A DNA stretch of 57,364 nucleotides, filler included, from Dugesia japonica (lineage: Eukaryota): assembly GCA_001938525.1 (NCBI GenBank). It is 5 parts of 5 records of this genome, joined end to end, with 100 filler letters (N's around TTAATTAATTAA, not from the genome) between each part and the next. Parts side by side here need not be neighbours in the genome. Positions count along the whole stretch, not along the records: positions 9,662 to 20,720 come from MQRL01588196.1; 4 more parts are not named here. The stretch is one strand, 5' to 3'. Position 1 is the first letter of the stretch. Each line of letters opens with the position of its first letter. Positions 432 to 57,364 of the stretch are shown here, one piece after another. The translations under genes and the position numbers were made by a program. The notes beneath the pieces are model-generated. The model searched no databases and had not been told where the DNA came from. It was given only the letters and a program-made list of their open reading frames with translations.

Positions 432-567
432 AAAGAGGAAACATTTTTCATTTAAGAGGAAAAATATATATAATAAAAAAGAGGAGTGAGATATTTAAGA
501 GGAGACTTAACCTACTTTTAGTGTGTCTATGATTAAATTATTTCTTTAGAAAATAGCAAAGCAACCT

Positions 568-3390
568 ATGGTCATGAGTACAATAATAAGATGTGAAAAT
601 TGTAATAAAGTGTTTAAAAATTTAGCAGGAAAAATGGGGCACATTAGATCTAGAATTTGTTATAGAGTAAATCTAACATTTCAATGTGAAAGATGTCGTA
701 GAATATTTAATTCAGAAAATGGTTTACAAGAACATTTAAATTCAACACGTTGTGGAAATCCAAATATTGTTCATTACATTGTGAAATATGTAACAAAAGA
801 TTTAGAAGAAAAAATCATGCAAGAGCACATTATAATTCTCCCAAAAATAAAGAAAAAGTTAATAAAGTTTTATTTGAAGAATTACCAGGTGAAGAAGCAA
901 TTGATTACGAACCAGAAATAAGAGATCTATTAAGACAATACAGAGATTATGAAATTGAATATTTTAAAGAAAGTAAAGTGGTAATGAGAAAAAATGTGAA
1001 TGAAATATTCGAAGAACCAATTAGAGATATTAACACTTTTCAAAATGAAGTTAAAGAAATTATTACAAAGTATTTAAGTTATGGAAAAAAGATTATTGTA
1101 AGTATNNNNNTTAAATGTAGATATGAAAAAGAAATAAATAATGAAAATAATGAAAGAGATTTTACTTCATATTCGATTAATAAAAGATTTACAACTGAAA
1201 GTGAAATTGAAAATAATGTTAATGAAATATTTAATGAATTACAAAGATACATTTAAGATGAAGATAGAGAAGGCTCTGGATGGACAATGTCAAATATTGT
1301 GGATTACAAAATAGATTTAAGTAAATATCAATCATTAGCTAGAGCAACATATTGCAAATTACCGTTTAAAAACCAGGCGTAATCAACATAGAAAATAAAG
1401 ATAATAAATGTTTTCTATATTCAATCTTAGCACACAAGTATATAGTTGATAATCCAACACGTGTAGAAAATTACATTCCATATTTAACAGAATTAAAATA
1501 TAGTGGTTTTAAATTTCCTATGAACATTGATGATATAAAAAATTTTGAGAAATTAAATAATTTAGAAATAAATTTGTTTGGTGTAAATGATAATAAAAAA
1601 CTTGAACCATTACACATTTCACATTACAAAAGAAATCCATCAGCAGAAGAAAATAAATGTAATTTGTTAGTGTATAAAAATCATTATGTTTTATGTAGAG
1701 ACATAACTGTATTTTTTACATCATAAAATAGAAACACAAACTATCCATGCATAAGATGTATAAATTGTTATTCCAATGAAGAATTATTAATTAAACATCA
1801 AGATGCATGCATTAGACACAAACCAAATAATATTGTTTTTCNANATGANGANTATTATTATTTTAATANATATTATCAAATAAATAAAATACCATTTGTA
1901 TTAATTGGAGATTTCGAAGCATATACAAATTTAGATAAAAAACAAAAAGCATTGTCATTAGGAATTTATCTCAAAAGTGATCACACAGAATCATTAGAAA
2001 GTAAATATTATGAATTTACAGGTGAAAACATTTATGATGATTTCTTTAAGTTTTTAGAAGAGACTAATAATAAATTGCAAGATATAAAAGAAAATAAATT
2101 AATAAAAGAAATTACCAATCAAGTTCCAGATTTTACACCAGAAACAAAATGTAGATATTGTGATAAAAAAATACGTGACACTCCAGTTAAAGACTATAAT
2201 CATTTTACAGGAGAATTTCGAGGATGGTCATGTAATAAATGTAACATGAATGACAAAAGTGTAAAAAATTTATTTATACCATTTTATTTCCATAATGNAT
2301 CAGGTTATGATAACCATTTATTTTTTAGAGAATTATTAACAAAGTTTCCTTCGAGAGTAAAAAGAATAATTCCACATACAACAGACAACTATATTTCTTT
2401 TCAATATGAAGACATTAAATTTCTAGATTCAAATAAATTACTTCCATTTACACCAATTGAAACAATGGGAAAATTATTAGCACAATCAGGTAATTATCCA
2501 ATTTTAAATTCATTTAATTTAAGACCAAAGAAAGCAAGTTTTCCATGCGAATATGTAAAAGGAAACAATATTCAAGAAGTTAAAGAATTATTAAAATCAG
2601 ATCGAACACCAACTAAAAAAGATTTTTTCAACACATTAAATCAAAACGAAATATCTGATGAAGATTATGCGGCATTTCTAATTGACTTTGCACATTATGA
2701 AAATATGTGGGAGTACATGTTACATTATATGAAGTTACATGTTTTAATTTTAACAGATTTTCTAGAAAACTTTAGAGATTCATGTTTAAACAATATTATT
2801 AAATTAGATCCATGTTATTCATATTCAGCACCAGGTTATGCATGGGAAACAGGAATGTTAAATGCCAATGTAAAATTGAAAAATGCGAAACCTGAAACTT
2901 ATGATATTTTCTTAATGATTGAAGAAAGAATTAGAGGTGGATATTCTGGTATATTAGGTGAAAGACAAGTGTTTAGTCACAATAAAAATAAAAATATCAG
3001 ACAAATAAATAAAGCACAAAGAGAAGAATTATTAAAATTACTAGGTGAAGGAAAAAATATTTTAGATGATTGTTTTGAGGATACATTTATAAAATATATT
3101 GATGAAAATTCTTGATATGCAAGTTGTATGACTAGACCATTACCAACAGGTGAAATGCACGAAATAACAGATCTAACATATGAAATGTCAACTGATAATA
3201 TTAATTTTATTTATGAAGTCGATTTAGAATATCCAAGAGAAATTCATGAGAAAACAAAATATTTTCCATTATGTCCAGAAAGAATAAATATCAGATAAGA
3301 CATGTTAAGTGATTACCAAAAATGTTTTAATAAGAAAATTGGAAATAAAAATATTAAACTTACACTTAATCAATTCGACAAGAAAAATTA
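568..3390 (+). pseudogene. polB: Protein-primed family B DNA polymerase with three N-terminal zinc fingers and endonuclease VII-like insert; C-terminal half deleted
   Basis: ZnFs CENC..H..C, CERC..H..C, CEIC..H; EGSGW and NKCFLYSIL N-terminal motifs; ExoI GDFE, ExoII FHNxSGYD, CRYC..DYNHFTGEFRGWSCNKCN, IRGGYS, motif A YIDENS*YASCM; stops at 1254, 1724, 3113; homology to element 2 ends at about 3390 (LTLNQFDKKN). Confidence 0.92.
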
Positions 3391-9217: not shown

Positions 9218-9561
9218 TTAAAATAAATCATCTAACATTTCATCAGTTTCTTTATTTATATAAAAATAATTATATTTAGTTTTAGAGTGAAGATTTACTT
9301 CATAATCATATTCTAACTTATTTTCAAAAATATTAGAAAATAACTCATGATAAACATTATCTCTATCAGTTTTATTTAATTTAAAGAAAATGTAACAATT
9401 CGAATTATTNCTGATAGAGTTTTTATCTAAATGATAATATGTTTGTGAAATATAAATCACGTTACAATTTGAATGTCTACTTCTTGGGAAATAACTTTTT
9501 TGAATCTCTTGATTTTTTATATTAACTACATCATCAAATATTATTAAGTTTTTCTTTTCCT
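9218..9561 (-). CDS. A32/FtsK-like genome packaging ATPase, C-terminal part
   Basis: Open frame from scaffold end: KKNLIIFDDV (Walker B), YFPRSRHSNCNVIYISQTY (Arg finger, sensor Q), NSNCYIFFK. Confidence 0.9.
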
Positions 9562-9661
9562 NNNNNNNNNNNNNNNNNNNNNNNNNNNNNNNNNNNNNNN
9601 NNNNNTTAATTAATTAANNNNNNNNNNNNNNNNNNNNNNNNNNNNNNNNNNNNNNNNNNNN
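9562..9661. other. Artificial scaffold-joining linker
   Basis: 44 N + TTAATTAATTAA (stops in six frames) + 44 N. Confidence 0.95.
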
Positions 9662-9832
9662 ACATTATTTTGACTCTTTTGGTTTAAAACCATTTCATGA
9701 AGATCTTGATGAGCATGTTATAAAATTTAATGAAATTCAGGTTCAACCTTTTGAAACAAGGAATACTTTGTATTTATTTTCTCTATAGTTTTCCTGAAAA
9801 ATCTTTTGATGATATTATTGCTGAAATAAATG
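9662..9832 (+). pseudogene. Adenain-like protease, 3' fragment
   Basis: HYFDSFGLKP..FNEIQVQPFETR, then LCIYFLY after a frameshifting deletion that removes the catalytic CG. Confidence 0.8.
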
Positions 9833-11095
9833 AANATATTTGGAGAAAGCTCACAGGCGATGAATGATGCTGAACTCTTAAATATAATTTCTGGTAAACT
9901 AAGAATTCAAGATTCTACCAATGAAAAAAGATTTGTAAATGAAACTGGTGATATTATTAAATCCTTAAAAATTCTTGATCCACCTAAAGATGAACTTGAT
10001 GCAGTAAATTTAAAATTTTTTAAAAACGAACAAAAAAATATTCTTTACGAGGGTTTAAAAAAAGAAGTTGATAAATTTGAAAGTAAATTTGTAAATGAAA
10101 GTGGTGACACTATTAAATTCTTAAAAATTATTGATGATCCTAAAGATAATCTTGATGTAGTAAATTTAAAAAATATTNNNNNNNNNNNNNNNNNNNNNNN
10201 NNNNNNNNNNNNAAGATGATCTAGTAAATTATAAATTTCTCAAAAAATTTATTTTCAAGTTTTTCTTCCAAATAAAAGATGATGTTAAAAATTTTAAAAA
10301 ATCAAAAGAAATTGAAGTTTTAAAAAAAGAAGTTGAACTTTTAAATAAAAATTAATGGTGAAAAAGAAATTTCTATTATTAAAAAACAAATTGATCCATT
10401 ATTTCCTTTACTAGAGGAATTTGAAAATATAAAAGCGCATCTTAGTGAAAAACATAAAAATAAAATTAATGAAAATTTAGAAATATATAAAAAAACTAAG
10501 TCTTCAGAGATCTTAGAAAAAATAAAAGAATTAGTTAATAATTTTTTATTCTGGTGTGATATTAGCATCGATGTATTTGTGGTTTTTAAAATATTTTTTT
10601 TTTATTAAAAGTAATAATAAATTTCCATATTATACCGAGTACTCAGATCGTGGATGGTTAGAAAAAGTAATAATAAATGGTTTTTGGGAATATTCTAAGG
10701 AAAAAACATTATATTTTTTTCTTCGGGTTTCTTTAAGACTTTATCTTTCATTAAAAATCGCTAGTGGTCCAATATGTATTTTTATTTCTGGATATACGAA
10801 AACGCTTAAAATTAGTATTATTTTTAATTTTGCCGGTTCTGATGAGGTTTTAGATTTTACATTTGAAAAACTTGGAAAATTTAAATTAGAAATAAACTCT
10901 TTAAAATTAAAGGGGGGTAGAAGTGGGCATGATTTTCCTTCTTTGGGAGAAGATACTTTTACGAGAAATTTAACAGCGAGTATATCAATAAAAAATTTTT
11001 ATAAATTTTTACCACCAAATCTTTATATTAATAACCTTATTATTATGTCTGGGTGTCCTAAAGAAGAAAGAAAAAAAATATTCGATGAACTATAA
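9830..11095 (+). pseudogene. Putative fibre/spike protein (at least two neck repeats, one head)
   Basis: FVNETGD..PKDELDAVNLK and FVNESGD..PKDNLDVVNLK; helical linker EFENIKAHL..KELVNNFLFW homologous to element 1; divergent beta-rich C-terminus. Confidence 0.55.
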
Positions 11096-11109
11096 AATTC
11101 TTTAAGAAA

Positions 11110-11671
11110 ATGGCAGATGAATCCATATATCCAGATTTAAAAAATTATCAACAGGAAATAAATTTTTATACACTTGAAGATTTAAAATCAAAATTATCAT
11201 CTTTAAGAATTAAAGATTTCGAAAATGATTTATATTTTATAAATGATAAAATAAAATACTATCGAAAATATTATTCAAAATGGGCCGCCGCCGATGATGG
11301 AATAAAAGTTTCTCAAATTATAATTGGAACCGGTGTGGCCATTGTTGGTGTAATTTTTGCAACTCCTATTGGAATATGAATTACTACATATGGTCTTCTC
11401 ATAATAACTGGAATAGGTTCTTCAATTCCAATTACTGGTGCATTAAATTCATCATTAATTCAAAAGAAAAAAAAGAAGTATATCACCTTAATTGTAAAAT
11501 TAGAGAGTTAAAAATAAACTTTTTCTATTTCAACAAAAGGCCTTGAATGATAATCTTTTAAGTGATGAGGAAATTACTACAAGTAAAAACATGATTCGAG
11601 AAGTTCATGAAATAATTTTAAAATCTAAAATTGAAAGTCCTAAATTTGAGTTAAATAAATTAACAGTCTAA
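11110..11671 (+). pseudogene. Two-TM membrane protein with N-terminal YPDL
   Basis: MADESIYPDL, FENDLYFINDKIKYY, hydrophobic hairpin, KALNDNLLSDEE; stop at 11377, frameshift near 11508. Confidence 0.75.
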
Positions 11672-14600
11672 TCTATCCCATAAATGATCAAATTTAAAAT
11701 GCCAATCTTCACATCTTTCACAATAAAATTTTATGCCGTGGGCCCATTCTATAATTCCATTATCTTCTAATAAATGTTTATCATTATATCCAGACATTGC
11801 AATTTTCTTTTGAGAAGTTAATTCTATTTGATGTTTGTGAGATTGTAAACGGCGGTTTACCCCATGAATCACTTCTTGAGAATCTTTTAAAATTTTGTTA
11901 TAAGCCTCCATTTGTATGTTGTTGGATTTTGATGTTCCATTATGTTTAGCATTATAAGTTTCACTTCCATCTTCATTTTTATAATTAATTGCATAACCTT
12001 TTGATTTTATAAAACAAGCTTCTGTAATTATACTATTGGGCAATTAATCTTTCATTTGAAAGAGATTATTACCTAATATACCTTCTACCTTTTCCAAATT
12101 TTCTCGCCGCCTGATTTCCACAAATTTTGAGTCGGTATAAGAATAGTGAATTTTATAATTTTTTGTTCCAATTAGTGGGGCCATCTGTTTATATACAAAA
12201 TCATACATAATCTCTTTTGCAATTTCTAAAATACAGAATCCAAGGAATGGAAATTTGTTATATTTTAAATTTGTTTGTCGCATGTGCATCACAGCTATAT
12301 TTGGAGAAAATGTTTTTGAATATTTATAAGTTGGTCTTCCAGCGAGTCTTCTAAATTCTTTATCATTTGTAACAAATTCCATATTACAACGGTTTCGTAT
12401 ATCTTCAAGGGTTTTCCCATAAAATGAATTATTCAAAAGTTTAAATAAATAATCACCAAATTCATCACCATTTCTTTTGGCTTCATTTCTCTTTTCAACA
12501 TTAAAAAGAATATATGGTCTTAACCATGGTCTTGTTAACATTTTACATTTGTAATGAAATTTTCTCAACTTCATGCCATGTTCTAAATAAAGATTTAATG
12601 TGCTTTCTAATACAATGTAATTTCTTTTATCAAACATATTAAGTGTTAATTTAACATTTTTAGGGTGTTTTCTATTAAATCTCCTTTGATGTGGACTTAG
12701 CATATTCTTTGTGATATTTACCCTTTCTGGCGCTAATGGATAATATCTTGCTTTTTTTATGAATTTCAGGTGAATAATCTAAATCCACCTCATAAAGGAA
12801 ATTATAATCATCTGTTGCTATTTCATAAGTTAAATCCTCACATTCAATAAATTCACTTGTTGGAAGTGGTCTTGTCATGCAAGCAGAATATAGAGAATTT
12901 TCATCAAGATATTTTAAAAATGTTTCCTCAAAATAATGCTTTGGAACATTTCCACCTTGTTTTAATATTTTCATTATATCATCAAATTCCGCCCTAGTTA
13001 ATCTTTTGTTCTGAGAGATTTTTTTATTATAGGGAAAAACTTGCCTATCACCACAACCACCTGAGTAACCACCTCTAATTTCTCTTTCTATTTTTTGAAA
13101 TATTGCTAATGTTTCTGCTTTTGCATATTTTAATCTAACTCCTGTAAATTTCATTTCAGCTGCCCATGTAAGTCCTGGGGCTGAGTAACAATAACAAGGA
13201 TCGATATCATAATATTCTATACATGTATTCCTAAATTTTCAAAAAAGTCTGCAAGAATTAAAACATCAAGTTTCATGTAATGTTTTGTATATTCCCACAT
13301 ATTATTAAAATTCCTAAAATCTTCAAGAAATTCATAATACTCTGTATTGGTTATTTCTTTCTGTTTTAATGTATTGTAAAAATCCTCCATTCCTGGAATT
13401 CTATCTGATTTTAATAATCTAATTACTTCTTCCACATTTCCCCCCTTTACATATTCATAAGGAAATATTATTTTTTTAGGTGTTAAATTTAAAGTTTTTA
13501 ATCGAGGACATTTACCAGTTTTGTTTAACATCTCTCCCATTTTTTCTATTGATGTGTTGCTACACATTCTGTTGGAATCGAGGAATCTAATATTTTTTTA
13601 AATTCAAATGAAATATATACTACATCATTCTGTGGAATTATATTAAAAATGTCCCCTGGATGTTTTTCTATTAATTCTGTAAAGAAAAGATGATTGTCAT
13701 AACCAGAGCCATTATGAAAGTAGAATTGAAGAAATATTTTTACATCTGCTTGTTTTATGCATCGCGCATGTGCGAATCCTCGGAATTCTCCAGTTAATTT
13801 ATTAAAATCATTTTCCCGATCATCATCTAAATAATTTTTACAATATCTACATTTATTTTNTATGTGGTGTGGAATATTTTTTTTCTCTGGTGGATTGTCT
13901 ATAATATTAATAATTTTTTTATTTAATAATTCTAAATATTTTATAAAATTATTTAAAAGATTTTTTCCTGTGAAATACTTATAATGTGTAGGAATTAAGT
14001 CTTGATATGAACTTTCAAACCACCCTCCTAAACTTAATGGTTTTTTTTATTATCATATATGCAAGTGTATGTTTCAAAATCACCATATGCTGCAAATGGA
14101 AGTAGATTTTTAAAATTATGATTTTTATAATAAGAAAATTCATCCCTACAAAATCTTGTTTTTATTGGTTTGTGATAAATACATTCTTCTTGATGTGTTT
14201 CAAATAATTTTTTACTGCGATATGAATTCATACAACCAATGCATAAATTATTTTTATTATTAAAATAAGTATTTAAATCCTTGCAAAGTCCATAATAAAA
14301 TAATAAATTACATTTATTTTCTTCTTTATCAGGTTTGCATGTAAAATGTGAAGTATAAAGTGGAGTAAGATTTTTTTCATTTACAATTTCAAAAACATTT
14401 ATTTTCCAATTATTTTTTTTTCAAATTGTTTTATGTCTCCCACCTTCATTGGAAACCTAAAACCTTCAAAATTTAACTCGCTAAGAAATTCTTGATACCT
14501 AGCTTGATTTGGATTTTCTAATTCATGTTTATGTTCTAAAATTGAGTATAGAAAACATTTATCATCATCATTTTTTATATTAATAACCCCCGCTTTTTTA

Positions 14601-15404
14601 AATGGTAATTTTACATATGAAGAACCTCCAGCCACAGATTCATAAGCATCCATTTCAATTGTATAATTAATTATATATTGCAACACCCAACCACTCCCTA
14701 CTCGATCTTTATCTTCTAAATATCTTTGGAGGTCTGCTATTTGTAATAAAACAGCTTCTTTAATTTTTATTTTTTCTGTTATTTTTTCAAGTTGTACATA
14801 AGATTTAAAAATTTCTTCTTTACCCTCTTTTAAATAATTACCTGCAGCTGATAATTTAAGATTTAGTTTTTTTTCATGTTCAAAAAATGTTTCTACAACT
14901 TCTATTATTTCATCACTATATGGACTAAGCATTTTTTCTTCATCTTGAGAAATATCCAATGTTAATTTAATTCTACTATTTTTAAAATGTCCAATTTTAT
15001 ATTCAGGATATTTTTTTAAATAATCTATTAAGTTTCCGACCCATATAAATAACAACATCATCCCCAGGAAGTGCATCAAATAATCTTATAGTATTAAATA
15101 ATGAATTGGGATCTGCTCGTTGTATGTGTTCATCGCTAGAGTAATGTATTTTTGCTATAGATTGACTTTTAAATTTTTTCTCACAAATATCACAATATAA
15201 ATTTACTGGAGTGGGATTTCTACATGTTGATGCACTAATATGATAATTCAATCCATCTCGAGTTGTAAAATTTTGGTGACATACTTCACATGGATATTCT
15301 ATATTTGGGTTTCTATTACATTTTTTAAAGTGGGATATTAAACCCGCTAGTTTTTTTAAACGCCTTCCACGTTTAGGACATGGATATGTGTTTGTTGGTG
15401 CCAT
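11660..15404 (-). pseudogene. polB: Full-length protein-primed DNA polymerase B with three N-terminal zinc fingers, fragmented
   Basis: ZnFs; VGSGW; DDKCFLYSIL; ExoI YGDFE; ExoII FHNGSGYD; ExoIII YMKLDV; motif A YLDENSLY; motif B KLLNNSFYGKT; motif C YSYTDS (D to Y); several frameshifts and stops. Confidence 0.95.
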
Positions 15405-15653
15405 TTTATAAAATAATAATTTAATCATATTATATTTTTTTCTTGGGGGTATAAATCAGGGGGTCCTCTTTAAGAGGATTTTTTTTTCTATAAAAAATTT
15501 TTTTTGGGGAATTTTTTATTCTTGGTTATCTGTAAAAAATCGCGCATTCGAAATTTTTTCATTTTAAATTTTTATGAAAAAAAATAAAAATGAAAAATTT
15601 AATTTTTTTAGGGTTTATACTCCCAATCTGGCTGCTTCATTATATTAACAACT

Positions 15654-16040
15654 CCCGTATTTTTCAAATGAAGGTAGAGATAAATTAAATAACAGAGGGC
15701 AAATAAAGTGTTTTAATTGTAATANNNNNNNNNNNNNNNNNNNNNNNNNNNNNNNNNNNNNNNNNNNNNNNNNNTAAAGAAAGATGTATCATTCAGCCCA
15801 GAAACAAGAGAAACTAATGCTATTGAAGTAATCGATAATGAAGCTTATCAAAATATGAGAATTGAGTTAGAAGATATGAAAATACATTATCAGCGTATGA
15901 TGGAGAGACAACAAAAGAGAGAGGAATATGAAATAAATATGTGTGAACCAACATAAGTAGATTTAGATGCAGTTTATGAAAGGAAGCAGGAAATATTGAT
16001 AGAGAATGTCCGATTGGAAATAACAAAAGAAAGAATTAAT
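15654..16040 (+). pseudogene. gag: Gag C-terminus with two CCHC zinc knuckles
   Basis: RGQIKCFNCN running into a gap; RCSL*KEAGNIDRECP is a degenerate second knuckle. Confidence 0.65.
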
Positions 16041-16219
16041 GAACTTAGATTGTTACAATATTTGAAAGATGTTAATGAATACCCTATAACTTTCAAAAAA
16101 TTAAACCCATAATAATCATTTTAGCAAAGAATCGAAACATAATAGAGATATCAGAAAGTTTAGAAACAATAGATGAGATATTTCAAAAATATAGTGAATA
16201 TGTAAAAGGAAACGAAACG

Positions 16220-17123
16220 TTGCAAGAGTCATTAAAGATCAATATGGTAGCAGGAAAAAACGAGTGTTCAGTGACAGCATTAAAATTGACAGTACACGCG
16301 TGTACAAAAACGAATAAATTATTTAAAATAGTAAAAAAAGATTGGCCAGTATTGTTGCAAAATGAAGATGTGATACAACTATCATTCTATAATACAGAAC
16401 TAAATGAGAACAGAACATTGATGGAATATGGAATTATTCCAGGTAATATTAATATCATAAAAGCAACAATCATGAAACATAAGTCACAAGTATTAACAAA
16501 TGATCAACAAAAATCTATTGAAAAAACTTTGAGTATGATGGCACAAGCAGATAAAGCTGAGGATGAAAGAGCAAGCCAGCAACAGCCACCAACATCGACC
16601 ACAAGAAATGAAAAGCCATCAACATCAGATGATGTAAGAAGCGAGATGAAAGAGACAGAAAATATTTAAAGACAAAGTATCAGATTATTAAAAATCAAGA
16701 GGTAGACCAAAATTAGAAGATATAATACCAGAAAAAGTGCAAGCTGAACATTTGAATAATACATCACAAAGATATGATGAGCAAGCATCAGCAGGATCAG
16801 ATCAAGGACTTATAAGAAGTCTAATTAAATTGGTACATGNNNNNNNNNNNNNNNNNNNNNNNNNNNNNNNNNNNNNNNTAATGATATTCGAAGACATGAA
16901 ACTCATATTAAAAGAAGTGAGCAAATTGATAATAGCAGATCCAGAAATTGATGATTATAAAGTGATAAAAACAGTGATGAAGGAAGGAATAAAAAAAAAT
17001 AAAGTAGTCACAGCTATTTTGTATTTGATACTCAAGAATCGAGAACAATTAGTTGAGAAACCTGATAAAAATATTGTGGTTGTAGAACAAATAGTTAATC
17101 AATTTTTGAAAAAAAGGAATTAA
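16220..17123 (+). pseudogene. Gag-env spacer region containing a ubiquitin-like domain
   Basis: LKLTVHACTKTNKLFKIVK..QLSFYNTELNENRTLMEYGI aligns with ubiquitin [39 protein letters not shown]. Confidence 0.5.
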
Positions 17124-17262
17124 CGCGGGGATCACGCAAGAAGGAGGTAGGGAAACGTTATTTCCAACAAATAATCGTAAACAAAAAATTCAACAAACAG
17201 AACAAGAAGATGAAATAAAGAAACTTATTAATGAATAAACTAAAAAATCAAATCGACCACTA

Positions 17263-19140
17263 ATGGGTACAATAATAACAATTATAATAATGTTATTAGA
17301 ATTAGCAAGAGGAGCAAATGCGATGGTAGCATATGATTGTAACACTCCAAAATGGGGGGAAAGTTTTCATTATTGGATGTAGAAAATTTTTCAGAGGCGC
17401 ACCCAACAAAATTAAAAATATCAAATCCAATAATCATGCATTTATATCAAGAGTCTGACTTTGTGCATGCAGAAGCATACGAATGTAGTATAAAATTTGA
17501 AGAGGAAATTTCATATTGTGATACTACACAAAGTATAACACTAATACCAGCATGGTCTCCAGACATAGTGGTAATAGATGCGAGTGATTGTGAGAAGGCG
17601 TTTAAAACCAAAGTGTTGAAAGTACATGGGTATGAATTACAGGTAAGAGTTGGGGCGAGAGTAAAGCAAAGAGTAGATATTGTAGGATGATCAACTGCAG
17701 ATGGATATTTTGGAGGAGGAAAGTATAGAATATGGAGACAAGTGAAATTTGACATCTTAGTTCGAAGACAATATCATGTCGAATTAAAGAAAATAAAAGT
17801 AACATTTGATGCTGCTATGGGAAAAATGATGACACATCCATTTTTTAGCTTAAAAGATACAAGTTGTGATACCGGAGAATCAATGATGGTGTATAAAGTA
17901 AATCCATTTAAATGTACACTTACGAAATTAAAAACAGTGGCGATGAGAGAAGTTAGTGGAACTTTACCAACGAATAAGCCACCTAACATACGAGATGCAA
18001 AAAGGAAAGCATCAGTGATTGGTGAAAAAGCAACACCAACAATATATATATATATATCAAATTCAACACAAGAATCATTAAGACTTATTGAGAAAGGAGT
18101 AGATATCAAATGTGGAGTGGAAGTGATAGTAACAAATTATAATGGGTTATATTTATCAGTAAAAGAAATAAAAGATGCCAGACCAGAGGTTGATAAACTG
18201 GATGTAAAAAGAGCTACATATTTCAACAATAAAATAGATTTTATCTATCATGAAATTTTAAGACAAGTAGACAGAATATATCAAGAAACAATGATGAGAA
18301 ATTGTAAAATTAAGCGAGAATTGTTAAGAGCAAAAATGGCAATGGTAGTCACGAATCCGGATCTGGTAGCACCACTCTTGTTTGAGGAAAGAGGAACATT
18401 TGGAAGAATAGTAGGAGAAACTTTAGTGAGTTTTAAATGTAAACCAGTAGCCGTTACGCTTACAGATCATGAGAAATGTACTAATGANNNNNNNNNNNNN
18501 NNNNNNNNNNNNNNNNNNNNNNNNNNNNNNNNNNNNNATTACCAGTAATTTATAAGTGAGAAAAAGTGTTTTTGCTCCCAATAACAAGAATTTTAACAGA
18601 TAAACATCAACCAAAAGTGATTGAAAAGTGTAGTAATATTCTTGATCATATGTACAAATTAACAGTGTCGGATAGAAAGACAGCACCAACTCCACTAATG
18701 ATGGAAATGATAGAGCTCGGTAGAACAACAGAATTGGAAAGGATTGATAATATGGAAAAGCTTGGTATTTATACAATTAATGATATTGAGAAGGCACGAA
18801 AACATATGCTTTTCCCAATACAAAGAGAGAAAATAATATCAATAATGGTCGATAAAGTAGCAAGAGGGAGTAATGGAGACGATGTAAATTTTGAATCACT
18901 ATTACACGCAGATCATTTTAAAAGGGCAATGCGTAATTTCGTAGATAGATTTTTATGGGGAATGCAATGGTTTGGTAATATATTCTAATGTATTTTATTT
19001 GGGTGGTATGTTTTAACATTTTTAAAATTAGCAGGTCATCAAATACTTTCCCTAAGAGAATTACATGCAGTTTTCGGTTAAACATGGAAACTAGGAGCAT
19101 GTTTCTGTCCATTTGTTGCAAAACACATGATTGTGCAAAA
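17263..19140 (+). pseudogene. env: Chuvirus-like (class III, gB-related) envelope glycoprotein
   Basis: Signal peptide MGTIITIIIMLLELARGANA then AYDC..FSLLDV; HLYQ..EC..SYC; YFNNKIDFIY; NPDLVA..GTFGRIVGETLVSFKCKPVAV..KCTN; FLLPITRIL; TM then LHAVFG*TWKL. Confidence 0.85.
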
Positions 19141-19339
19141 CCATATTGAAAACATAAAGAATCTAGAAAAGCATCGAGGCGTATATACAGTAAACATAGA
19201 TGATGAGCAGGAGCTTAATAAATTAACTAATGATAGATCATCAGATACAGAATATAAACCATATAAACAAGAAAACATTGAGTTAGAACATATAAAAATA
19301 GATGATTCAACACAATATAAATATCGAAAAAATTACTCA

Positions 19340-19780
19340 ATGTCAGTCATAGATTCAGACAATAATAGACCCACAACAGATATTATAATAAATAGAATTA
19401 GTATACCTTCGTTAATAGATATAGGAGCAGTATGCTCAATAATAAAAGAAGCGTGGTTAAATAAAGCCTAAAGACAGAAAATAAAACATTATAAACCAGA
19501 AAGTATAAAATCATTTACAGGTCATATAATAAAAATAAAAGGCATAATTGAATGTACGGTCGTAATTGGACAAGAAATTGTTACACATCCATTTAGAGTT
19601 ATGGAAAATGGAACACAGAACTGTATCTTTGGTATGGATTTTCTAGCAAGATTAAAAGATTACGTCATCGATTTACAATATAGCACATTAAAAATGGTAA
19701 CATCATTACCAGTGCAGGATGAAGGTAATGTGATATGTGCAACAGAGTTAATAACAGTGGAACGCTGTAGTGAATGTATA
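19340..19780 (+). pseudogene. Retroviral-type aspartic protease
   Basis: RPTTDIIINRISIPSLIDIGAVCSII..SFTGHIIKIKG..CIFGMDFL; one stop at 19469. Confidence 0.85.
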
Positions 19781-19783
19781 ATA

Positions 19784-20720
19784 ATGTATAATAAGAAATG
19801 GTGTCAAGCATGTAGTATCTGTGCCACAAGAAAGAACACAGGAACAAAAACCAAAGTTCCATTACAACCAATGCCAATACCNAGTTCACCAATGGAAACA
19901 TNTGCAATGGATTTNTTNTGNAAATTACCNANNACTATNAANGGCAACAAACACATATTAGTGTTCAATGATTATTTTACAAAATGGGCAGAAGCATTTC
20001 CTACAAAGGATGAAACAGCAAATACAGTAGCAAAGTTATTAGTTGAAAAAATAATATACAAATATGGAACGCCAAGGAAGCTGTTATCAGATAGAGGGAA
20101 AAGTTTCCTCAATGAAGTCATACAACGAGTAACAAATATGTTTGATATTAAGAAAATAAATACAACGGCTTATCACCCACAAACTGATGGGTTAGTTGAA
20201 AGATTTAACAGTACATTATGCAATAAATTGGCAGTTTTCGTAAATAAGCATCAAAATGATTGGGATCTATTTATTAAGCCAACATTATTGAAACATAATA
20301 CAACTGAGAACGAAGCTACGGGATATTCACCATTTTATCTTATGTATCTCAGAAAAAATTATATGCCTATAGATATAACATTTGAGCCAATTGTATCACA
20401 GTATATAGATAATCCAGATTACGTTACAAAAATGCAAGAAAGATTACAAGAGGTAAATAAACAAGCAAATCTAAAAGTAAAATTTAAATAGGAACAATAC
20501 AAAGACTATTATGATTGAAAAGCTAAAGAACATAATTTTAAAGTAGGAGATAAAGTGAGGATAAAAGTACCAGTTACACAAAAGGGATTAACAAATAAAT
20601 TAGCAAGGCCTTACAAAGGTTCATATGAGGTAGTAAAAACAACTCATACGAACTTGCACGTAATAAAAAACAAAAAAGATGATCCCATGATTGTGGCAGT
20701 TAACCGATGCAAAATAGCAG
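19784..20720 (+). pseudogene. Gypsy integrase (ZnF C-half, DDE core, GPY/F-like tail)
   Basis: CQACSICA, PLQPMP, AMD, DYFTKWAEAFP, SDRGKSF, TTAYHPQTDGLVERFN, TGYSPF, KLARPYKGSY. Confidence 0.95.
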
Positions 20721-33800: not shown

Positions 33801-36800
33801 AATTTATTAAATTTCTCAGAAAAATGTGCTCACATTAAAACAAGAAAAAATCTTTTAGGACGGAAAAATTTTGAATAAGAAAATTAATAATTTCGCAGGC
33901 AACTGATAATTGAATCGATATAAAATTTGGTAATAAATGAAAATAAATTATTACGAAACTAAATTTTATCTGAAATTGTAAAAGGTGATATTAATTTTCA
34001 AATATAATTTTCATACATAAGAAATATTATAAAATGTTCTTATAAAATTAAATAAAACATCAATGTAAACATATCGATTTAATTCAGTTCACATGGAAAA
34101 TTACGTCATTCAACAACAACCAATGATGATGATCTATCTATCTGTCAATTCAAACTAATCGATAGCAAATCACCATCAGCATAATTGAGCCAGTTATAAA
34201 TGATTAAAATACTTCTATAGCCTACTGACTAATATAAGTAAAAAAATAATGAAAAAAATTGCAATAAATCAAAAGTGACAATACTAACATTACTAGACAC
34301 ATCTTCATAGATATCATTTGTTTTCAATGAACTTTTCTTCCTTTTTCTATTGATATTTCTCGGTGAATTTTCCGACATGACTGATAGTGATTCGCTTGTG
34401 TGAGAAGATGCATAAATCCTAAATGCAAACAAAATTCATTATGCAAACGCTTATTTTCTCCGATTACTCACTTGGTATCATCCTTATTATTGTGTTGTGT
34501 GTGCTCCTCATTGTTATAACACATGCGGCAACGACACAGACTTGAGCAAAATACTTTGTTCTGTTGAAAGAAAATATCGAAATCAATAATAATAATATTA
34601 ATAATTATGATTTACAAAATCTAACCTCAAAACATTCACAATAGTTCTTCAAACATGATGATTTCAAACAATTGCATCCTTTACTGTGTTTCTTGCCGAC
34701 ATCTTTATTTTCTGAACATTGTTAAATACTCAATAAAATTACACTTTCATAATTGATCAATAATGAATATCTAATTTGATATAATTTGCACAATTTATCG
34801 ATCATTAGTAAAACATTGATTTTTGTGTTCAATGTGGTATCACTAGTAATTTTTAATCGGTATTTATGTATTGACATCATAACTCATTAGAAATAGTTTT
34901 ATTTTTACTTTATTTCTCAATTGGTAATTAATTATAACAATGGATAGAAATCAAAATATTTAAAATCAAAACTAATACTATTCTTAGAAATTATGTAAAT
35001 CCTTGTAGTATAGAAATAAAGCAATCCCGAGTATGAAGTATTCATCAACCAATAGTACTAATATTCTCACATTATGTTGCTCATCATCTAATTTTGTGCC
35101 CACGCAAGCAATGTGGGCGCCGATCTACATAATTGAAATATGTTAGGATATATCGATGCAGGGGAACAGGTTTTGTACGACTAATAATTATATTTATGAA
35201 ATGAAAATAGTTGATATTGATATAATTTGTTTGTGCAAGGTTATTTATAATATATATAGAAAATATTAAACAAAAATTAATTATCATTGAAATGGTAAGC
35301 TTTGTATACTATGATAGAATAATCATTTAACAGAAATAATCAATATTGTTAGTCGATATACAAAGTTTGACCCTGACATAAAATCGTGACCGTGACATCA
35401 TCATATCGATGGATGTGAAACAGCAGTAAAGTTGTGTAATATATGCACAGCAAACTGCATCCATCGTTTAATCGTACATAAATATCACCATGATTATGTA
35501 ATATTACAATATCAAAATGCAAACCTATTTTCGAATTGAACACCCATGGATCTCTCTCCAAATAGGAACTAACAATTTTTGCTCTCTCTTCTTTGTGATT
35601 ATCATTATTACGACAATTGATACATGTACATCCCGAACAGCACAGATTACCATTAGCGAAACACTCACAGTACAATTTTAAACAACTCGACTTTGTACAT
35701 GTACAGCTTCTCGATGTTGTTTCTTCACTTGGAGTTCCCGTTCGATCGGGTGGTGTTTGTGATTTACTTATTGAATTTTTTATATGAGTAACATTGATAT
35801 TCGTATCAAGATTCGGTTCATTCGGTTGGCTAATTGACTCTTTTTTTAATGGTTCCTTCTTTGACGGATCTGAAATGAAGAAATTATTTAATCATATAGT
35901 GTTGCTATGGGATCGTTATAAATGTTGTGCTATACGTTTTGATAATCAATAAATTATTGTTTCTATTGTTCTTCAATCAAATTGTTGTCACAACCATAAT
36001 GAAATGCAATTTAAAAAGCGCATACATACATAAAGCAATAGATTCTAATGTACTGACACACAAGATCATACAACGATTTTAATTCATAAAATCTGACGAT
36101 GAGAATACTAGATAAATGTCTATTACATAACCGCCATATATTGTGTCATTAGAACTGCGATTATCATTAATAAGCAATGCGACATGAGTCTAATGAATAT
36201 GCTTAATGTTTTCTAATCGTCTAATCACAGCGAGACATATTTAATACTGACTAATTTATATACAAATATTGATTAATTATATTGATTATATTATGAATTT
36301 GACTTCAAGCATTTATTGATTTATTAATTCACGTGAAACAAAAATAATTTACCTATCTCATTGACTTTTTCTTTTTTCACTGATTGATCGTCGAGTTTAT
36401 TATAGGTTTGTGATAGATTAAGTGGACCTGCAGGCATAGAGACATTGACTGATAACGATGATTTTGTTAAATCCGAATTATTATTGTTGTTATTGTTAGC
36501 CATATTAACGCGCGCAATCGAACTTAGTAAATAATTCAAAAGATTACTCTTGATGGAAACTGAATTGTCTGGTACCAATTGTATTGTTGATTGAGTATTG
36601 AGATTCTGTGGGATGTTGTGTTGATTTGTATGGCAGGGGATAGATGACTCTTTGTATATTGGTATTTTCCCAGGATCGGTCGAAATTGATTTTTCCAATG
36701 AATTTGTAATGACAATATTCCTCTGTTCTATTCCATTGATTTCCGAATTGGAATTGATTTTAGCTGGTATCAGTTTTTGTTGTCTATTTTTATTGAAATC

Positions 36801-37748
36801 AGATGCAGGTTGAGGGTCGGTATCGATAATCAACTTTGAGCAGATATCGTTTTCTGGTAATTCGTATCGAGTTGTTGAAGATTCTGGCAAAGAAAATACA
36901 GAAAAATAATTCTTATTCAACAAATGCGAGATCATAAAGAAAATAGGAAATCGAATTTTTTTTAATTCAACCCAATAACTTATCAGTGTGTTAATAAGTG
37001 TTTGTATTTTTGTAAGTGTGTCNNNNNNNNNNNNNNNNNATATATATATATATTATAAAAAGAATCGATAATGGATTTTAAAACAAGGCTCGCAGCGACG
37101 TGTTGTTATTAGGCAAATCGCATCACTGTGTATTCAAACTACGATTGTTTGTGTGTTGAATTCAATTTCGACTTAGTATTTGTGTGTATTCATGAGTTGT
37201 GTGCATCGTTTAAGTAAGTATTGATTTTATAAGATGGTAAAAATATCTGAATACATTTATCCAATCGCATTTGAGTATTCCTAATCAATAATTGATTTCT
37301 TTGTCTCAACAAAATAGTAAAATAAAATTAATATTATAATTATAAATATAAATATAAAAAATAATCAATTACCTTGAGATAACTTTGATCCACTTGACGC
37401 ATTTAAAAAAGCTTTGGCGAGTATTTTCTGTTCTAATTCTTTAATTTTTGATTCATATTCTTCAACTGATTTGAAGCTTTTCATTTTTTCTTCCTTTGTT
37501 GACCAAGGAAAAATCGTTGGCATATAATCGACATGACTGGAATCGAGATTCGGTTTACCAGTTGCGAAATGTGAATTGCAAATCCGGGAATTCGATGAAA
37601 CAGTTCCGTATTTGATCCGTTCACCGATTTGATTAAGCCAAAGCTGTTTACGATCACTATTTTGCGGGAGACGATAAAATATTTTCCGTTTTTTACAATT
37701 GACGGACTCGGATTCACAATTGAGAATGCAGCAAAACAAAGTTGGCAT
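30851..37748 (-). CDS. THAP domain + tesmin/LIN-54-type CRC (CXC-hinge-CXC) protein, 7 exons, 999 aa
   Basis: Exons 37748-37373, 36883-36353, 35869-35525, 34711-34626, 34560-34472, 34418-34289, 32293-30851; all introns GT-AG and phase-compatible, total 3000 nt; [32 protein letters not shown]; CXC1 [17 protein letters not shown]; hinge [11 protein letters not shown]; CXC2 [21 protein letters not shown]. Confidence 0.88.
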
Positions 37749-39929
37749 GGTAATGATATATAGATTGTAATAAATAATGAAATAATAAATCACTAGACTG
37801 TGTTGGCAAATTTGAAATTGAAAATTGATGAAAAAAAGCCAGTACACGCGCTCTCCAAATGACACTGGAGAGTGATGAATAATCGATTCTTTATCACTGG
37901 CAAAATATTAGGCAACAAAATCACTCTATCTGCCTATCAAACATATCGATTAACAATGAGGTAGAGAATCAATACTGTAACTATGTGCCGGTCTGTGTGT
38001 CCGTTTATTGGCTGCAGTCATTAGTTAGACGATGGCTGGATAGATATAGCTACGATTCAACCAGCGTATTAGCTTTATACACACACTAACAACCTCTAAT
38101 TTGAATAGTATCGATCGACACTAGATTTTCATTTCAGTGTGGCTAACCCGGCCTGTGGTGAGACTACACTTGTATGCACACAGGTTTTTGTTTAATTTTT
38201 TTTAATTCAGTTTTTTGATAACAGCCAGCTAAAAATTCGGTGAAGGTTGAGAGCAAGTTTTTCAAAATTTGAGGATATAATAAAAATGAAATAATAATAA
38301 ATATTGATTTATTATGAAAATTAATTTTCAAACAAATTTTATTGGAGTGTATCGTGAGTGCTTGTGTGCATATTGAATATATGATAAAATTGATTAATTA
38401 TTTTGAATGTATGTGTATGTTCGTCGTAAAGTAATTGTGCTTCTATTGATTTAATTTTCAATGTCTATTTGAATTAAATATAATTAATTTGTTATAATAT
38501 CTTTAGGTTTTATTGATTTGTATATAGAAAAAAATATTTGTTTTCTATTTGAATAATATTTCAATTTTAACAAATTTTTGGTAAAATAAATTTATCTAGA
38601 TAAGGGAAAATCGATTTTTTCACTGTGGTCGATATCGTGATAGTCTGACACACACAGACAAATTGATGCCAGTTGGCAACGGAGTAGAGGCTTGGAGCAT
38701 TACAATCAGCAATTCTCAGGGGCCAAAAATCAATGTTATCGACACATTAGACTGGCTCATTCGAATTGGAAAAGGAAAACATATCGATTGAGATTCTGAC
38801 TTAATTAAGATATAGAAAATATTTTTCATAAATCAATTTTATCCTATTTCATTAATAAACTAGGGGTCAACAAAGATCAATATGGATTTTTTTAGCTCTG
38901 CATTTTTTTATTCACCATTAATATTAATATATTTTCCAATTAAATTTAAAATTATTTCATAATGAAAGCAGAATAATATCCAGTACAATTAAGAATAAAA
39001 TTAATTTGATTTCTTAGTGAAAACTAAAAGTGAAAAGCTGTGCAGTTATAAAGGTTAATGAGTATTGAATTTTGTAAAACCAGATGATTTATTTCTTGGG
39101 AAGAAATTTTTTTAATTTAAAAATAATAATTCGAGTCATTATTATTAGTTTGTAAATAAATGAGTTTATCATAAAACTAAATTTCTAACATCGCAACCCA
39201 CTAAATGATACAATATTTTTCTCTGTGTAAATCAACTTTNNNNNNNNNNNNNNNNNNNNNNNNNNNNNNNNNNNNNNNNNNNNNNNNNNNNNNNNNNNNN
39301 NNNNNNNNNNATTATTAAACTATGATGTTTCTTTCTATTCCGATTTTTATGCAATTCTTAATGAGATTTAATTATTGAAAATTATTGGATTATTAAATTG
39401 GTATTTTTAATTAATCTTACTAAATTAGACATACAAATGATAGATATTTCCCATATTAATTTAGAATTTATAATTTGTTAGAGGCATTAAAGACTCTTCT
39501 AGATTAACGAGATCTATTAGTTTCTATTTTATTACAAATACCGAGTAAATTAATCAGTATGTTTTAATAGTGTTTCGATTTTGTAAAGTAGTATTATCTT
39601 TGACAATCTGTAGTTATGGTTCACCCCTAAAATCTGATCATATGTTCTTATAATTTAAAGAATTATTATTAGAACTATTGTTGAAGTTAACCATTAATTG
39701 CTATTTTATAATTTCTAATTTAATAGAATTCAATTTATCTAATTTTTTGTAGTATATCGATTCGTTGTCAAGCTAATAAACCTAATTGTTTCCTATGCAA
39801 TAGTCGTCTCTGTAAGCAAAAACTAATGGTTTAGTTGTCAAGGTCATGATTTGTGTCTAGCGGAACCTTGAAAGAAAATTTCAATTCAAACTAGTTCCTA
39901 ATGTTGATGCTATTGATGCTGAACCTTTT

Positions 39930-55529: not shown

Positions 55530-55569
55530 TATATATATATAAAATGAAAAAATGATTTCAAATTTATCT

Positions 55570-57345: not shown

Positions 57346-57364
57346 TAAAAATTTCAAATATTTC

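What the first reader, a model, noticed from the sequence alone, without database searches (positions are those of the whole stretch)
15654..20720. Gypsy-type element with a chuvirus-like fusogen BETWEEN gag and pol, in frame with protease and integrase
Seen: order is knuckles, Ubl, signal peptide + glycoprotein ectodomain + TM, protease, integrase, all on +. From 18566 to the scaffold end the glycoprotein C-terminus, TM, protease and integrase stay in one reading frame, broken only by point stops (18986, 19078, 19469, 20489, 20516). Known: env in retroviruses, errantiviruses and env-bearing BEL/Pao elements normally lies 3' of integrase, and chuvirus-type glycoprotein capture has been described mainly for BEL/Pao. 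Inference: this is a decayed copy of an enveloped Metaviridae lineage making an Env-Pol (perhaps Gag-Env-Pol) polyprotein, with signal peptidase releasing the fusogen and Pol initially tethered to its cytoplasmic tail.
Basis: partly seen in the sequence, partly recalled or inferred. Interest (0 to 1): 0.88.

Follow-up and report, generated by a model that had tools for sequence, protein, structure and literature searches.

The report
Decayed planarian-type gag-env-pol retroelement
This is a broken copy of a retrovirus-like mobile element whose membrane-fusion gene sits in front of its enzyme genes in one reading frame, an unusual order that is real here but was already described in flatworms, so it is likely one more member of a known group.

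Summary
The order is real: half a zinc knuckle, ubiquitin-like domain, Bcl-2-like remnant, signal peptide, class III (chuvirus/herpes gB-like) fusogen, transmembrane helix, protease, integrase. Fusogen tail and protease share one frame (3 stops in 408 codons, about 37 expected), and intact relatives carry Gag-Env-PR-RT-RNaseH-IN as one ORF. No capsid gene or LTR is present.

It is not new. In-frame env between gag and pol, behind Ubl and BCL2 domains, was described in planarian Burro elements in 2019 (PMC6431247). GAG-ENV-POL Ty3/gypsy elements with gB-type env were catalogued in flatworms, nematodes and bryozoans (PMC13524379); their Smed_errantivirus_3 env is about 50% identical by hand count. 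This scan noted the same arrangement on other DNA (e1-9743086).

Still open: how the polyprotein is processed (Pol likely tethered to the Env tail), and why 9 of 18 relatives carry 2-7 protease domains. Verdict: new, decayed member of a known kind; interest low.

The parts
15654..15654 (+). 5' edge of this copy; capsid part of gag and 5' LTR are missing, and it abuts a decayed Maverick/Polinton polB region
   Evidence: 13, 16 contigs in runs X1, X4 run on unlike the window before 15654; summed contig depth rises from 197-576 to 3,965-55,680 in X1
15709..15723 (+). First half (Cx2C) of one gag zinc knuckle; the rest falls in the N run 15725-15774
   Evidence: weak phmmer match to the third knuckle of P0004 (E 0.006 in a small set)
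15777..16082 (+). Charged, probably helical spacer with a stop at 15954-15956
   Evidence: weak tblastn match to P0004 384-415; no Pfam hit for 15777-15953
16151..16474 (+). Helix plus ubiquitin/SUMO-like domain (in ORF 16079-16669)
   Evidence: Atlas features 0.91 to a ubiquitin-family cluster; profile with 4 relatives hits ubiquitin E 2.6e-5 and ISG15 E 1e-3; window alone Rad60-SLD E 0.1; model pLDDT 61, fold searches inconclusive
16692..17160 (+). RGRP motif and Bcl-2-like remnant (N run 16840-16878, frame change near its end)
   Evidence: aligns to P0003, P0006, P0016; those 3 of 4 alignment members match Pfam Bcl-2, best E 2e-5, the window member alone does not; atlas no usable hit
17236..17238 (+). 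Stop codon in the signal-peptide frame, 8 codons before the first Met of the signal peptide
   Evidence: L001 has a stop at a similar place, L003, P0003, P0004 and P0006 do not
17260..17322 (+). Predicted internal signal peptide (hydrophobic core, small residues at -3 and -1 before 17323)
   Evidence: the same pattern precedes env in 12 of 12 relatives printed
17323..18979 (+). Class III fusogen ectodomain (chuvirus G / herpes gB type); frame change near 17355-17367, stop 17688-17690, N run 18488-18537
   Evidence: PF24664; AlphaFold2 of 17343-18485 pLDDT 89.3; Foldseek: chu-like virus G E 1.6e-24, TM up to 0.79, HSV gB E 8.8e-11; contigs in 3 of 3 contig runs bridge the N run
18980..19114 (+). 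Transmembrane helix (18980-19036) and a conserved hydrophobic, usually Cys-Pro-bearing motif after it (19076-19114); stops at 18986 and 19079
   Evidence: motif found in 16 of 19 sequences examined, window included
19115..19378 (+). Open hydrophilic linker from env tail to protease
   Evidence: 0 stops in 82 codons (19133-19378), 2 of 5000 shuffles as low; 112 residues motif-to-protease here, 88-348 in relatives
19379..19648 (+). Retroviral-type aspartic protease, degenerate (D-I-G motif at 19418, stop at 19469)
19649..19792 (+). Start of the post-protease spacer, then the deletion junction; a 10-nt tandem duplication lies at 19773-19792; about 660 codons (spacer, RT, RNase H, HH of the integrase zinc finger) are absent
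19793..20720 (+). Ty3/gypsy integrase from the CC half of the zinc finger through the D,D(35)E core to a GPY/F-like motif (20606-20626); stops at 20489 and 20516; cut by the scaffold end
   Evidence: rve; 46-50% identical to integrases of P0013, P0005, P0135 and L003; best PDB match Ty3 Gag-Pol 7q5b E 2e-16

Best explanation
This is a 5'-truncated copy, lacking RT and RNase H and broken by stops, of a Ty3/gypsy retroelement with the published GAG-ENV-POL order, likely from a dugesiid planarian, whose intact relatives encode Gag, a class III fusogen and Pol in one reading frame. Shown: domain order, fold class of the fusogen, one frame from env tail to protease, single ORFs in intact relatives, decay of this copy. 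Inferred mechanism: the Gag-Ubl-Bcl-2-like part is made in the cytosol; an internal signal sequence would thread the fusogen into the ER; signal peptidase would cut before 17323, separating Gag from Env; the TM helix would stop transfer, leaving PR-RT-RNaseH-IN in the cytosol, attached to the Env tail until the element's protease frees it. Pol would then reach the budding particle through Env rather than through a Gag-Pol fusion. This copy itself is inactive.
For: Frame statistics. Fusogen by Pfam and fold. Of 131 library hits, 17 carry env plus a pol domain and env precedes the protease in all 17. L003 (3,703 aa) and L004 (2,693 aa) run knuckle-env-PR-RT-RNaseH-IN in one ORF, L002 (3,426 aa, open at its 5' end) from Ubl region to IN; P0065 likewise. 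The env N-terminal half groups with 17 retroelement-borne envs apart from 23 stand-alone glycoproteins (SH-aLRT 100, quick tree). Internal signal-like stretch in 12 of 12 relatives. Same Ubl-BCL2-env-PR order published for Burro. About 125 of 246 residues identical to Smed_errantivirus_3 env by hand count against 36% for the best database relative.
Against: No LTR, primer-binding site, capsid or RT in this copy, and no host assembly was held, so no intact copy of this exact family was seen. No single listed contig spans the whole TM-to-protease interval. A stop precedes the signal peptide here and in L001, so Gag may not be fused to Env in every lineage. A second hydrophobic segment follows the TM helix; if it crossed the membrane Pol would face the lumen. 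The hit count is biased, because the query held env and protease, and an env placed after integrase as its own ORF would count among the 74 'env only' hits. The host was not identified directly. Processing and tethering were not tested.
Confidence: 0.88

Rival explanations
1. Same element, but Gag and Env-Pol are separate translation units in this sub-lineage: the stop just before the signal peptide is programmed, and Env-Pol would be made by read-through, re-initiation or splicing.
For: Stop at 17236-17238 here and a TGA at the equivalent place in L001, which otherwise has an open 999-codon gag ORF. No variant row at this stop among the 40 rows shown.
Against: L003, L004, P0003, P0004 and P0065 read through from knuckle to env; P0006, sister to L001 in the env tree, has no stop there. 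817 variant rows were not shown, so the missing row proves nothing. This copy has many other stops.
Confidence: 0.15
2. The RT-less form is not a one-off deletion but an amplified non-autonomous subfamily (Gag-Env-PR-IN) that would be copied in trans by an intact partner.
For: The junction keeps the frame. The family is abundant in three contig runs and the bin holding the junction is covered; no loose-end pile at the junction is among the rows shown for those runs.
Against: The deletion also removes half of the integrase zinc finger, and a 10-nt tandem duplication marks the junction, as DNA repair leaves (the repair reading is inference). An in-frame join arises one time in three by chance. 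Five RNA reads in X22 run on unlike the window before 19799. 1,491 loose-end rows were not shown.
Confidence: 0.12
3. Chance juxtaposition or mis-scaffolding: an endogenous chuvirus glycoprotein, or a fusogen of the neighbouring Maverick/Polinton, sits next to unrelated gypsy protease and integrase fragments.
For: Fragmented assembly with three N runs inside the element. A decayed protein-primed polB lies directly upstream on the other strand. Nematode Mavericks with gB-like fusogens are recalled from the literature (not looked up).
Against: Single-stretch matches across env tail and protease in P0004, P0005, P0007, P0011, P0012, P0013. The integrase is 46-50% identical to those of env-bearing single-ORF elements. 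Env groups with retroelement envs. Depth changes sharply at 15654 and contigs bridge the N run inside env.
Confidence: 0.02

Closest known systems
[quoted passage not shown]
   Same: Gene order gag-env-pol, gB-type env, Ty3/gypsy pol. Env domains I-II about 125 of 246 residues identical to Smed_errantivirus_3 by hand count against window 17421-18158; the paper's own figures for that element against its five Schmidtea siblings are 31-38%.
   Different: This copy is truncated, lacks RT and RNase H and carries stops. About 50% env identity means a distinct family, probably another host species. The passages read do not state whether the three genes share one frame, nor mention Ubl or Bcl-2 domains ('fused', 'single ORF', 'polyprotein', 'ubiquitin': 0 hits).
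Burro / GYPSM1 giant gypsy-like LTR retrotransposons of dugesiid planarians (Arkhipova and Yushenova 2019, PMC6431247, section 7, citing Grohme et al. 2018 and Jurka 2007)
   Same: [quoted passage not shown]
   Different: No MATH, BIR or ankyrin domain was found in this copy, and knuckle to integrase spans about 5 kb here (about 7 kb with the deletion), so it looks like a smaller relative rather than a 30-kb Burro. No Burro sequence was available for direct alignment.
Nematode endogenous retroviruses (Sacco et al. 2022, J Gen Virol 103:1739; not held)
   Same: Metavirus with an RNA-virus glycoprotein and flipped ENV-POL order (as cited in PMC13524379); a continuous gag-env-pro-pol ORF is recalled from the abstract, not read.
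   Different: Nematode hosts; PMC13524379 reports that GAG-ENV-POL elements are not monophyletic, so not necessarily the same clade. Not compared by sequence.
Chuvirus (Jingchuvirales) G proteins and the chuvirus-type glycoprotein of mosquito BEL/Pao elements
   Same: Same Pfam family PF24664 and closest predicted folds.
   Different: Only 15-19% identity to the top ten viral folds; env groups apart from stand-alone glycoproteins; pol of intact relatives has Ty3/gypsy, not BEL/Pao, domains.

Membership tests
Ty3/gypsy (Metaviridae) | pol order PR-RT-RNaseH-IN with gypsy-type domains | tested here: met
   In intact relatives P0005, P0013, P0039, P0065, P0135, L002, L003, L004: gag-asp_proteas, RVT_1, RT_RNaseH, Integrase_H2C2, rve in that order. 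In the window PR precedes IN; RT and RNase H are deleted.
Ty3/gypsy (Metaviridae) | Integrase closest to Ty3/gypsy, GPY/F-type C-terminal motif | tested here: met
   Best of 15 PDB matches is Ty3 Gag-Pol, E 2e-16, ahead of foamy virus IN at 8e-10; GPY/F-like motif at 20606 (motif name recalled).
Ty3/gypsy (Metaviridae) | RT phylogeny | not testable with these tools
   No RT in this copy and no labelled reference RT set was available.
Ty3/gypsy (Metaviridae) | Flanking LTRs, primer-binding site, target-site duplication | tested here: inconclusive
   No LTR-like direct repeat among the 20 largest of 48 repeat families in the window; the copy is cut at 15654 and at the scaffold end 20720; no LTR pair inside L001-L004, which are short contigs.
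GAG-ENV-POL 'errantiviruses' with HSV/gB-type ENV (PMC13524379) | env lies between gag and pol | tested here: met
   relatives
GAG-ENV-POL 'errantiviruses' with HSV/gB-type ENV (PMC13524379) | ENV is a gB-like class III fusogen flanked by signal peptide and TM | tested here: met
   Model pLDDT 89.3; herpes gB fills the PDB list, best E 8.8e-11; hydropathy
GAG-ENV-POL 'errantiviruses' with HSV/gB-type ENV (PMC13524379) | Sequence kinship with the Platyhelminthes C1a group | tested here: met
   About 50% identity to Smed_errantivirus_3 env domains I-II, counted by hand from supplementary file 2; the other five rows were not counted
GAG-ENV-POL 'errantiviruses' with HSV/gB-type ENV (PMC13524379) | Intact ORFs with full RT and IN (the paper's inclusion rule for an intact element) | tested here: not met
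   RT and RNase H absent, stops and frame changes: a decayed copy of the kind, not an intact element
Burro / GYPSM1 | Ubl then BCL2-like then env then PR in one ORF | tested here: met
   Order met; the single frame is seen in relatives (L003), and only in pieces in this copy
Burro / GYPSM1 | MATH_TRAF_C, BIR, ankyrin and other extra domains | tested here: inconclusive
   None found by Pfam in the window pieces scanned, but the copy is truncated at both ends; ankyrin seen in relative P0135
Burro / GYPSM1 | Giant size: ORF of about 4,900-5,100 aa, element over 30 kb | not testable with these tools
   Both ends missing and no host assembly; the surviving span suggests a smaller element
BEL/Pao with chuvirus-type glycoprotein | BEL/Pao pol domains and env after integrase | tested here: not met
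   Env is before PR in the window and in 17 of 17 env+pol hits; relatives show gypsy-type Pfam sets and no Pao peptidase family
Maverick/Polinton cargo (fusogen and integrase) | Fusogen and integrase belong to the polB-bearing element | tested here: not met
   Depth step and loose ends at 15654; integrase and env both match single-ORF retroelements with RT

The most novel reading that the evidence does not exclude
These elements are enveloped retroviruses of invertebrates that package their polymerase through Env instead of Gag: signal peptidase splits Gag from Env-Pol, Pol hangs from the cytoplasmic tail of the trimeric fusogen, and the arrays of two to seven intact protease domains seen in half of the relatives let a membrane-tethered protease dimerise within one chain or cut each cargo domain free.
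Probability: 0.3. Interest if true: 0.62.

Novelty: new member of a known kind. Interest (0 to 1): 0.22.

Why it matters
As a discovery of gene order it matters little: the order, the in-frame fusion and the Ubl/BCL2 cargo are in print, and this copy is dead. What is still worth having is the mechanism. In orthoretroviruses and Ty3, Pol is packaged as a Gag-Pol fusion (established knowledge). A signal peptide between Gag and Env would break that link, so these elements need another way to load Pol, and the conserved env-tail-to-protease frame points to Env. PMC13524379 says the entry mechanism of gB-bearing elements is unknown. The multi-protease arrays in relatives were not found in the one paper search made for them.

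Tried and rejected
The env profile found no PDB sequence match; the gB link rests on fold. Ubl model was low-confidence and both fold searches were inconclusive; pairwise BLASTP of the Ubl ORF with L001 gave E 0.21 although phmmer gave 1e-6 in a 4-sequence set. The Bcl-2-like profile hit Bcl-2-family chains only at E 0.2-1, below designed coiled coils; the atlas gave no usable hit. Rfam and ARAGORN: nothing in the window. Runs: no RNA holder listed, best share 0.39. RNA run X22 gave 140 reads of 13.6 million, none 99% alike, 139 under 95%: relatives, not this copy. Sacco 2022 and Grohme 2018 were not held under the ids tried. The careful env tree did not finish; only the quick tree is cited. 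P0024 is a chance hit (cadherin repeats). No complex prediction was run. Rejected: BEL/Pao, Maverick cargo, stand-alone chuvirus insertion, chimeric scaffold at the N run.
Full report
Setting. The window is a chain of scaffolds joined by spacers at 9606, 20765, 30571 and 41446; the element lies on 9662-20720 and is cut by that scaffold's end. GC is mostly 20-35%. No host assembly is held.

Observation. Read with X at stops, 18560-20719 is one frame with five stops. Pfam places the C-terminal part of PF24664 Monjiviricetes_fusion at residues 2-209 (E 1e-23), a retroviral aspartic protease at 274-364 (E 3e-5, under the cut-off) and an integrase core at 450-540 (E 1e-8); the upstream ectodomain also matches PF24664 (E 3e-28), as does the piece holding the signal peptide (E 0.011). 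The frame is not chance: 3 stops in 408 codons against a shuffle mean of 36.8 (0 of 5000 as low), and 0 stops in the 82-codon linker (2 of 5000). AlphaFold2 on 17343-18485 with 40 relatives gave pLDDT 89.3, pTM 0.72. Foldseek ranks chu-like virus glycoproteins first among viral models (E 1.6e-24; TM up to 0.79) and herpesvirus gB first in the PDB (E 8.8e-11; TM about 0.4). The N run inside env is a scaffolding gap: contigs in 3 of 3 contig runs and 4 RNA reads bridge it, and relatives align across it almost without loss (P0004 1286 to 1288).

There is no RT or RNase H. Against P0013 the window aligns up to residue 1218 and resumes at 1877, in the middle of the integrase zinc finger; a 10-nt tandem duplication sits at the junction, 19773-19792. 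The protease-integrase frame match therefore spans a deletion and carries little weight; the env-protease match is the informative one. 'Knuckles' is half of one knuckle before an N run. Other copies part from the window at 15654 and depth rises there more than tenfold (summed contig depth is not a copy number), so the copy is 5'-truncated against a decayed Maverick/Polinton polB region. Between the Ubl and the signal peptide lies a Bcl-2-like remnant: it aligns with three relatives that each match Pfam Bcl-2 (best E 2e-5) though the window piece alone does not. The Ubl is supported by profile (ubiquitin E 2.6e-5; atlas 0.91) but not by its weak model. Three of the stops (15954, 17688, 19469) are private to this copy in the runs laid, among the 40 of 857 variant rows shown.

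Relatives. A phmmer search of 1.84 billion representatives with env tail plus protease gave 131 hits. With profiles built from some of these hits, 17 carry env and a pol domain, env first in all 17; 74 are env only, 39 pol only, 1 neither. The query favours such fusions, and an env in its own ORF after integrase would count as env only, so this shows that the fusion is common, not that other orders are absent. Four metagenome loci were fetched, three from one data set. L003 (3,703 aa) and L004 (2,693 aa) run knuckle-env-PR-RT-RNaseH-IN in one ORF, L003 with a weak ubiquitin hit before env; L002 (3,426 aa) does the same from its open 5' end; L001 has gag, Ubl and a Bcl-2-like stretch, then a stop, then signal peptide and env up to the contig end. 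The window's integrase is 46-50% identical to those of P0013, P0005 and P0135 and its best solved-structure match is Ty3. In a quick tree of 41 ectodomain pieces the window groups with 17 retroelement-borne envs apart from 23 stand-alone glycoproteins (SH-aLRT 100; the careful search did not finish).

Mechanism. Shown: order, fold class, frames, decay. Inferred: an internal signal sequence (present in 12 of 12 relatives printed) would send the fusogen into the ER and be cut by signal peptidase; the TM helix would stop transfer; the protease follows 88-348 residues after a conserved juxtamembrane motif (16 of 19 sequences), so Pol would be cytosolic and tied to Env until self-cleavage. Two things weigh against certainty. 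The juxtamembrane motif is itself hydrophobic, and a second crossing would put Pol in the lumen. And a stop precedes the signal peptide both here and in L001, though not in L003, P0003, P0004 or P0006.

Comparison with what is known. [quoted passage not shown] Chary and Hayashi (PMC13524379; abstract, section 14 and 22 whole, first parts of sections 5, 6 and 9, passages, and rows of supplementary files 1, 2 and 6) report GAG-ENV-POL Ty3/gypsy elements with gB-type env in Nematoda, Bryozoa and Platyhelminthes, and chuvirus-type glycoproteins beside gypsy pol in arthropods. Their Smed_errantivirus_3 env matches window 17421-18158 at about 125 of 246 residues by my hand count, well above the 36% best database relative. 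That points to a dugesiid host, which is inference. Sacco et al. 2022 was seen only as a citation; its single-ORF description is recalled. Grohme et al. 2018 was not read. Figures of these papers could not be seen and may already show details such as repeated protease domains.

Novelty. The element works like, and by order, fold and sequence belongs with, the published flatworm GAG-ENV-POL elements; it fails their 'intact' rule, and cannot be called a Burro proper because size and extra domains are untestable here. The search for a paper on processing topology listed 20 of 80 papers, none on these elements by title; none was read. One side result may deserve its own look: 9 of 18 relatives carry 2-7 protease domains, all with a D-T-G motif, some after the integrase (profile seeded from some of them; P0010 and P0135 are one 90% cluster). 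A search for tandem or duplicated protease terms found 0 papers. The window copy shows one protease, and any others would have gone with the deletion.

Verdict. Observation partly confirmed; new, decayed member of a known kind; interest 0.22.

Noticed in passing
P0135, P0004, P0005, P0006, P0009, P0010, P0015, L002:2-10279, L003:97-11205: Env-Pol polyproteins with 2-7 aspartic protease domains, each with a D-T-G motif, some C-terminal of integrase and followed by hydrophobic segments; no paper found for tandem/duplicated protease terms.
   Followed up: partly
window 17236-17238 and L001:3058-3060: A stop just before the signal peptide in two otherwise distant elements; decay or a programmed Gag / Env-Pol split.
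   Followed up: partly
window 11660-15455 (-), 550-3115 (+), 9218-9613 (-): Decayed Maverick/Polinton-like pieces on the first two scaffolds: protein-primed polB (weak DNA_pol_B_2, E 0.0014) with N-terminal C2H2 fingers, and an A32-type ATPase (E 1e-4).
   Followed up: partly
P0013 (HBK71150.1): A complete knuckle-env-PR-RT-RNaseH-IN polyprotein filed as a hypothetical protein of a Flavobacteriaceae MAG, most likely animal DNA in the bin.
   Followed up: no
L002:10617-12104 and L003:12085-13470: A separate ORF with a weak DEDD-type exonuclease match (RNase_T, E 1e-5 and 1e-3) downstream of pol in two intact relatives.
   Followed up: no
window 15000-19882, run X22: The few RNA reads from related copies are mostly first-mate-on-plus, which in a typical stranded library would mean antisense RNA; library strandedness is unknown.
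   Followed up: no
window 16089-16249 and 18660: Other copies diverge from the window here (loose ends, a 209-base stretch replaced by 197 other bases), suggesting subfamilies that differ before the Ubl and inside the ectodomain.
   Followed up: no
window 35349-35891 (-), 37365-37907 (-), 56599-57126 (-): Host or other mobile genes on later scaffolds: tesmin/TSO1-like CXC domain, THAP domain, and a reverse transcriptase fragment inside an inverted repeat (55555-57359).
   Followed up: no
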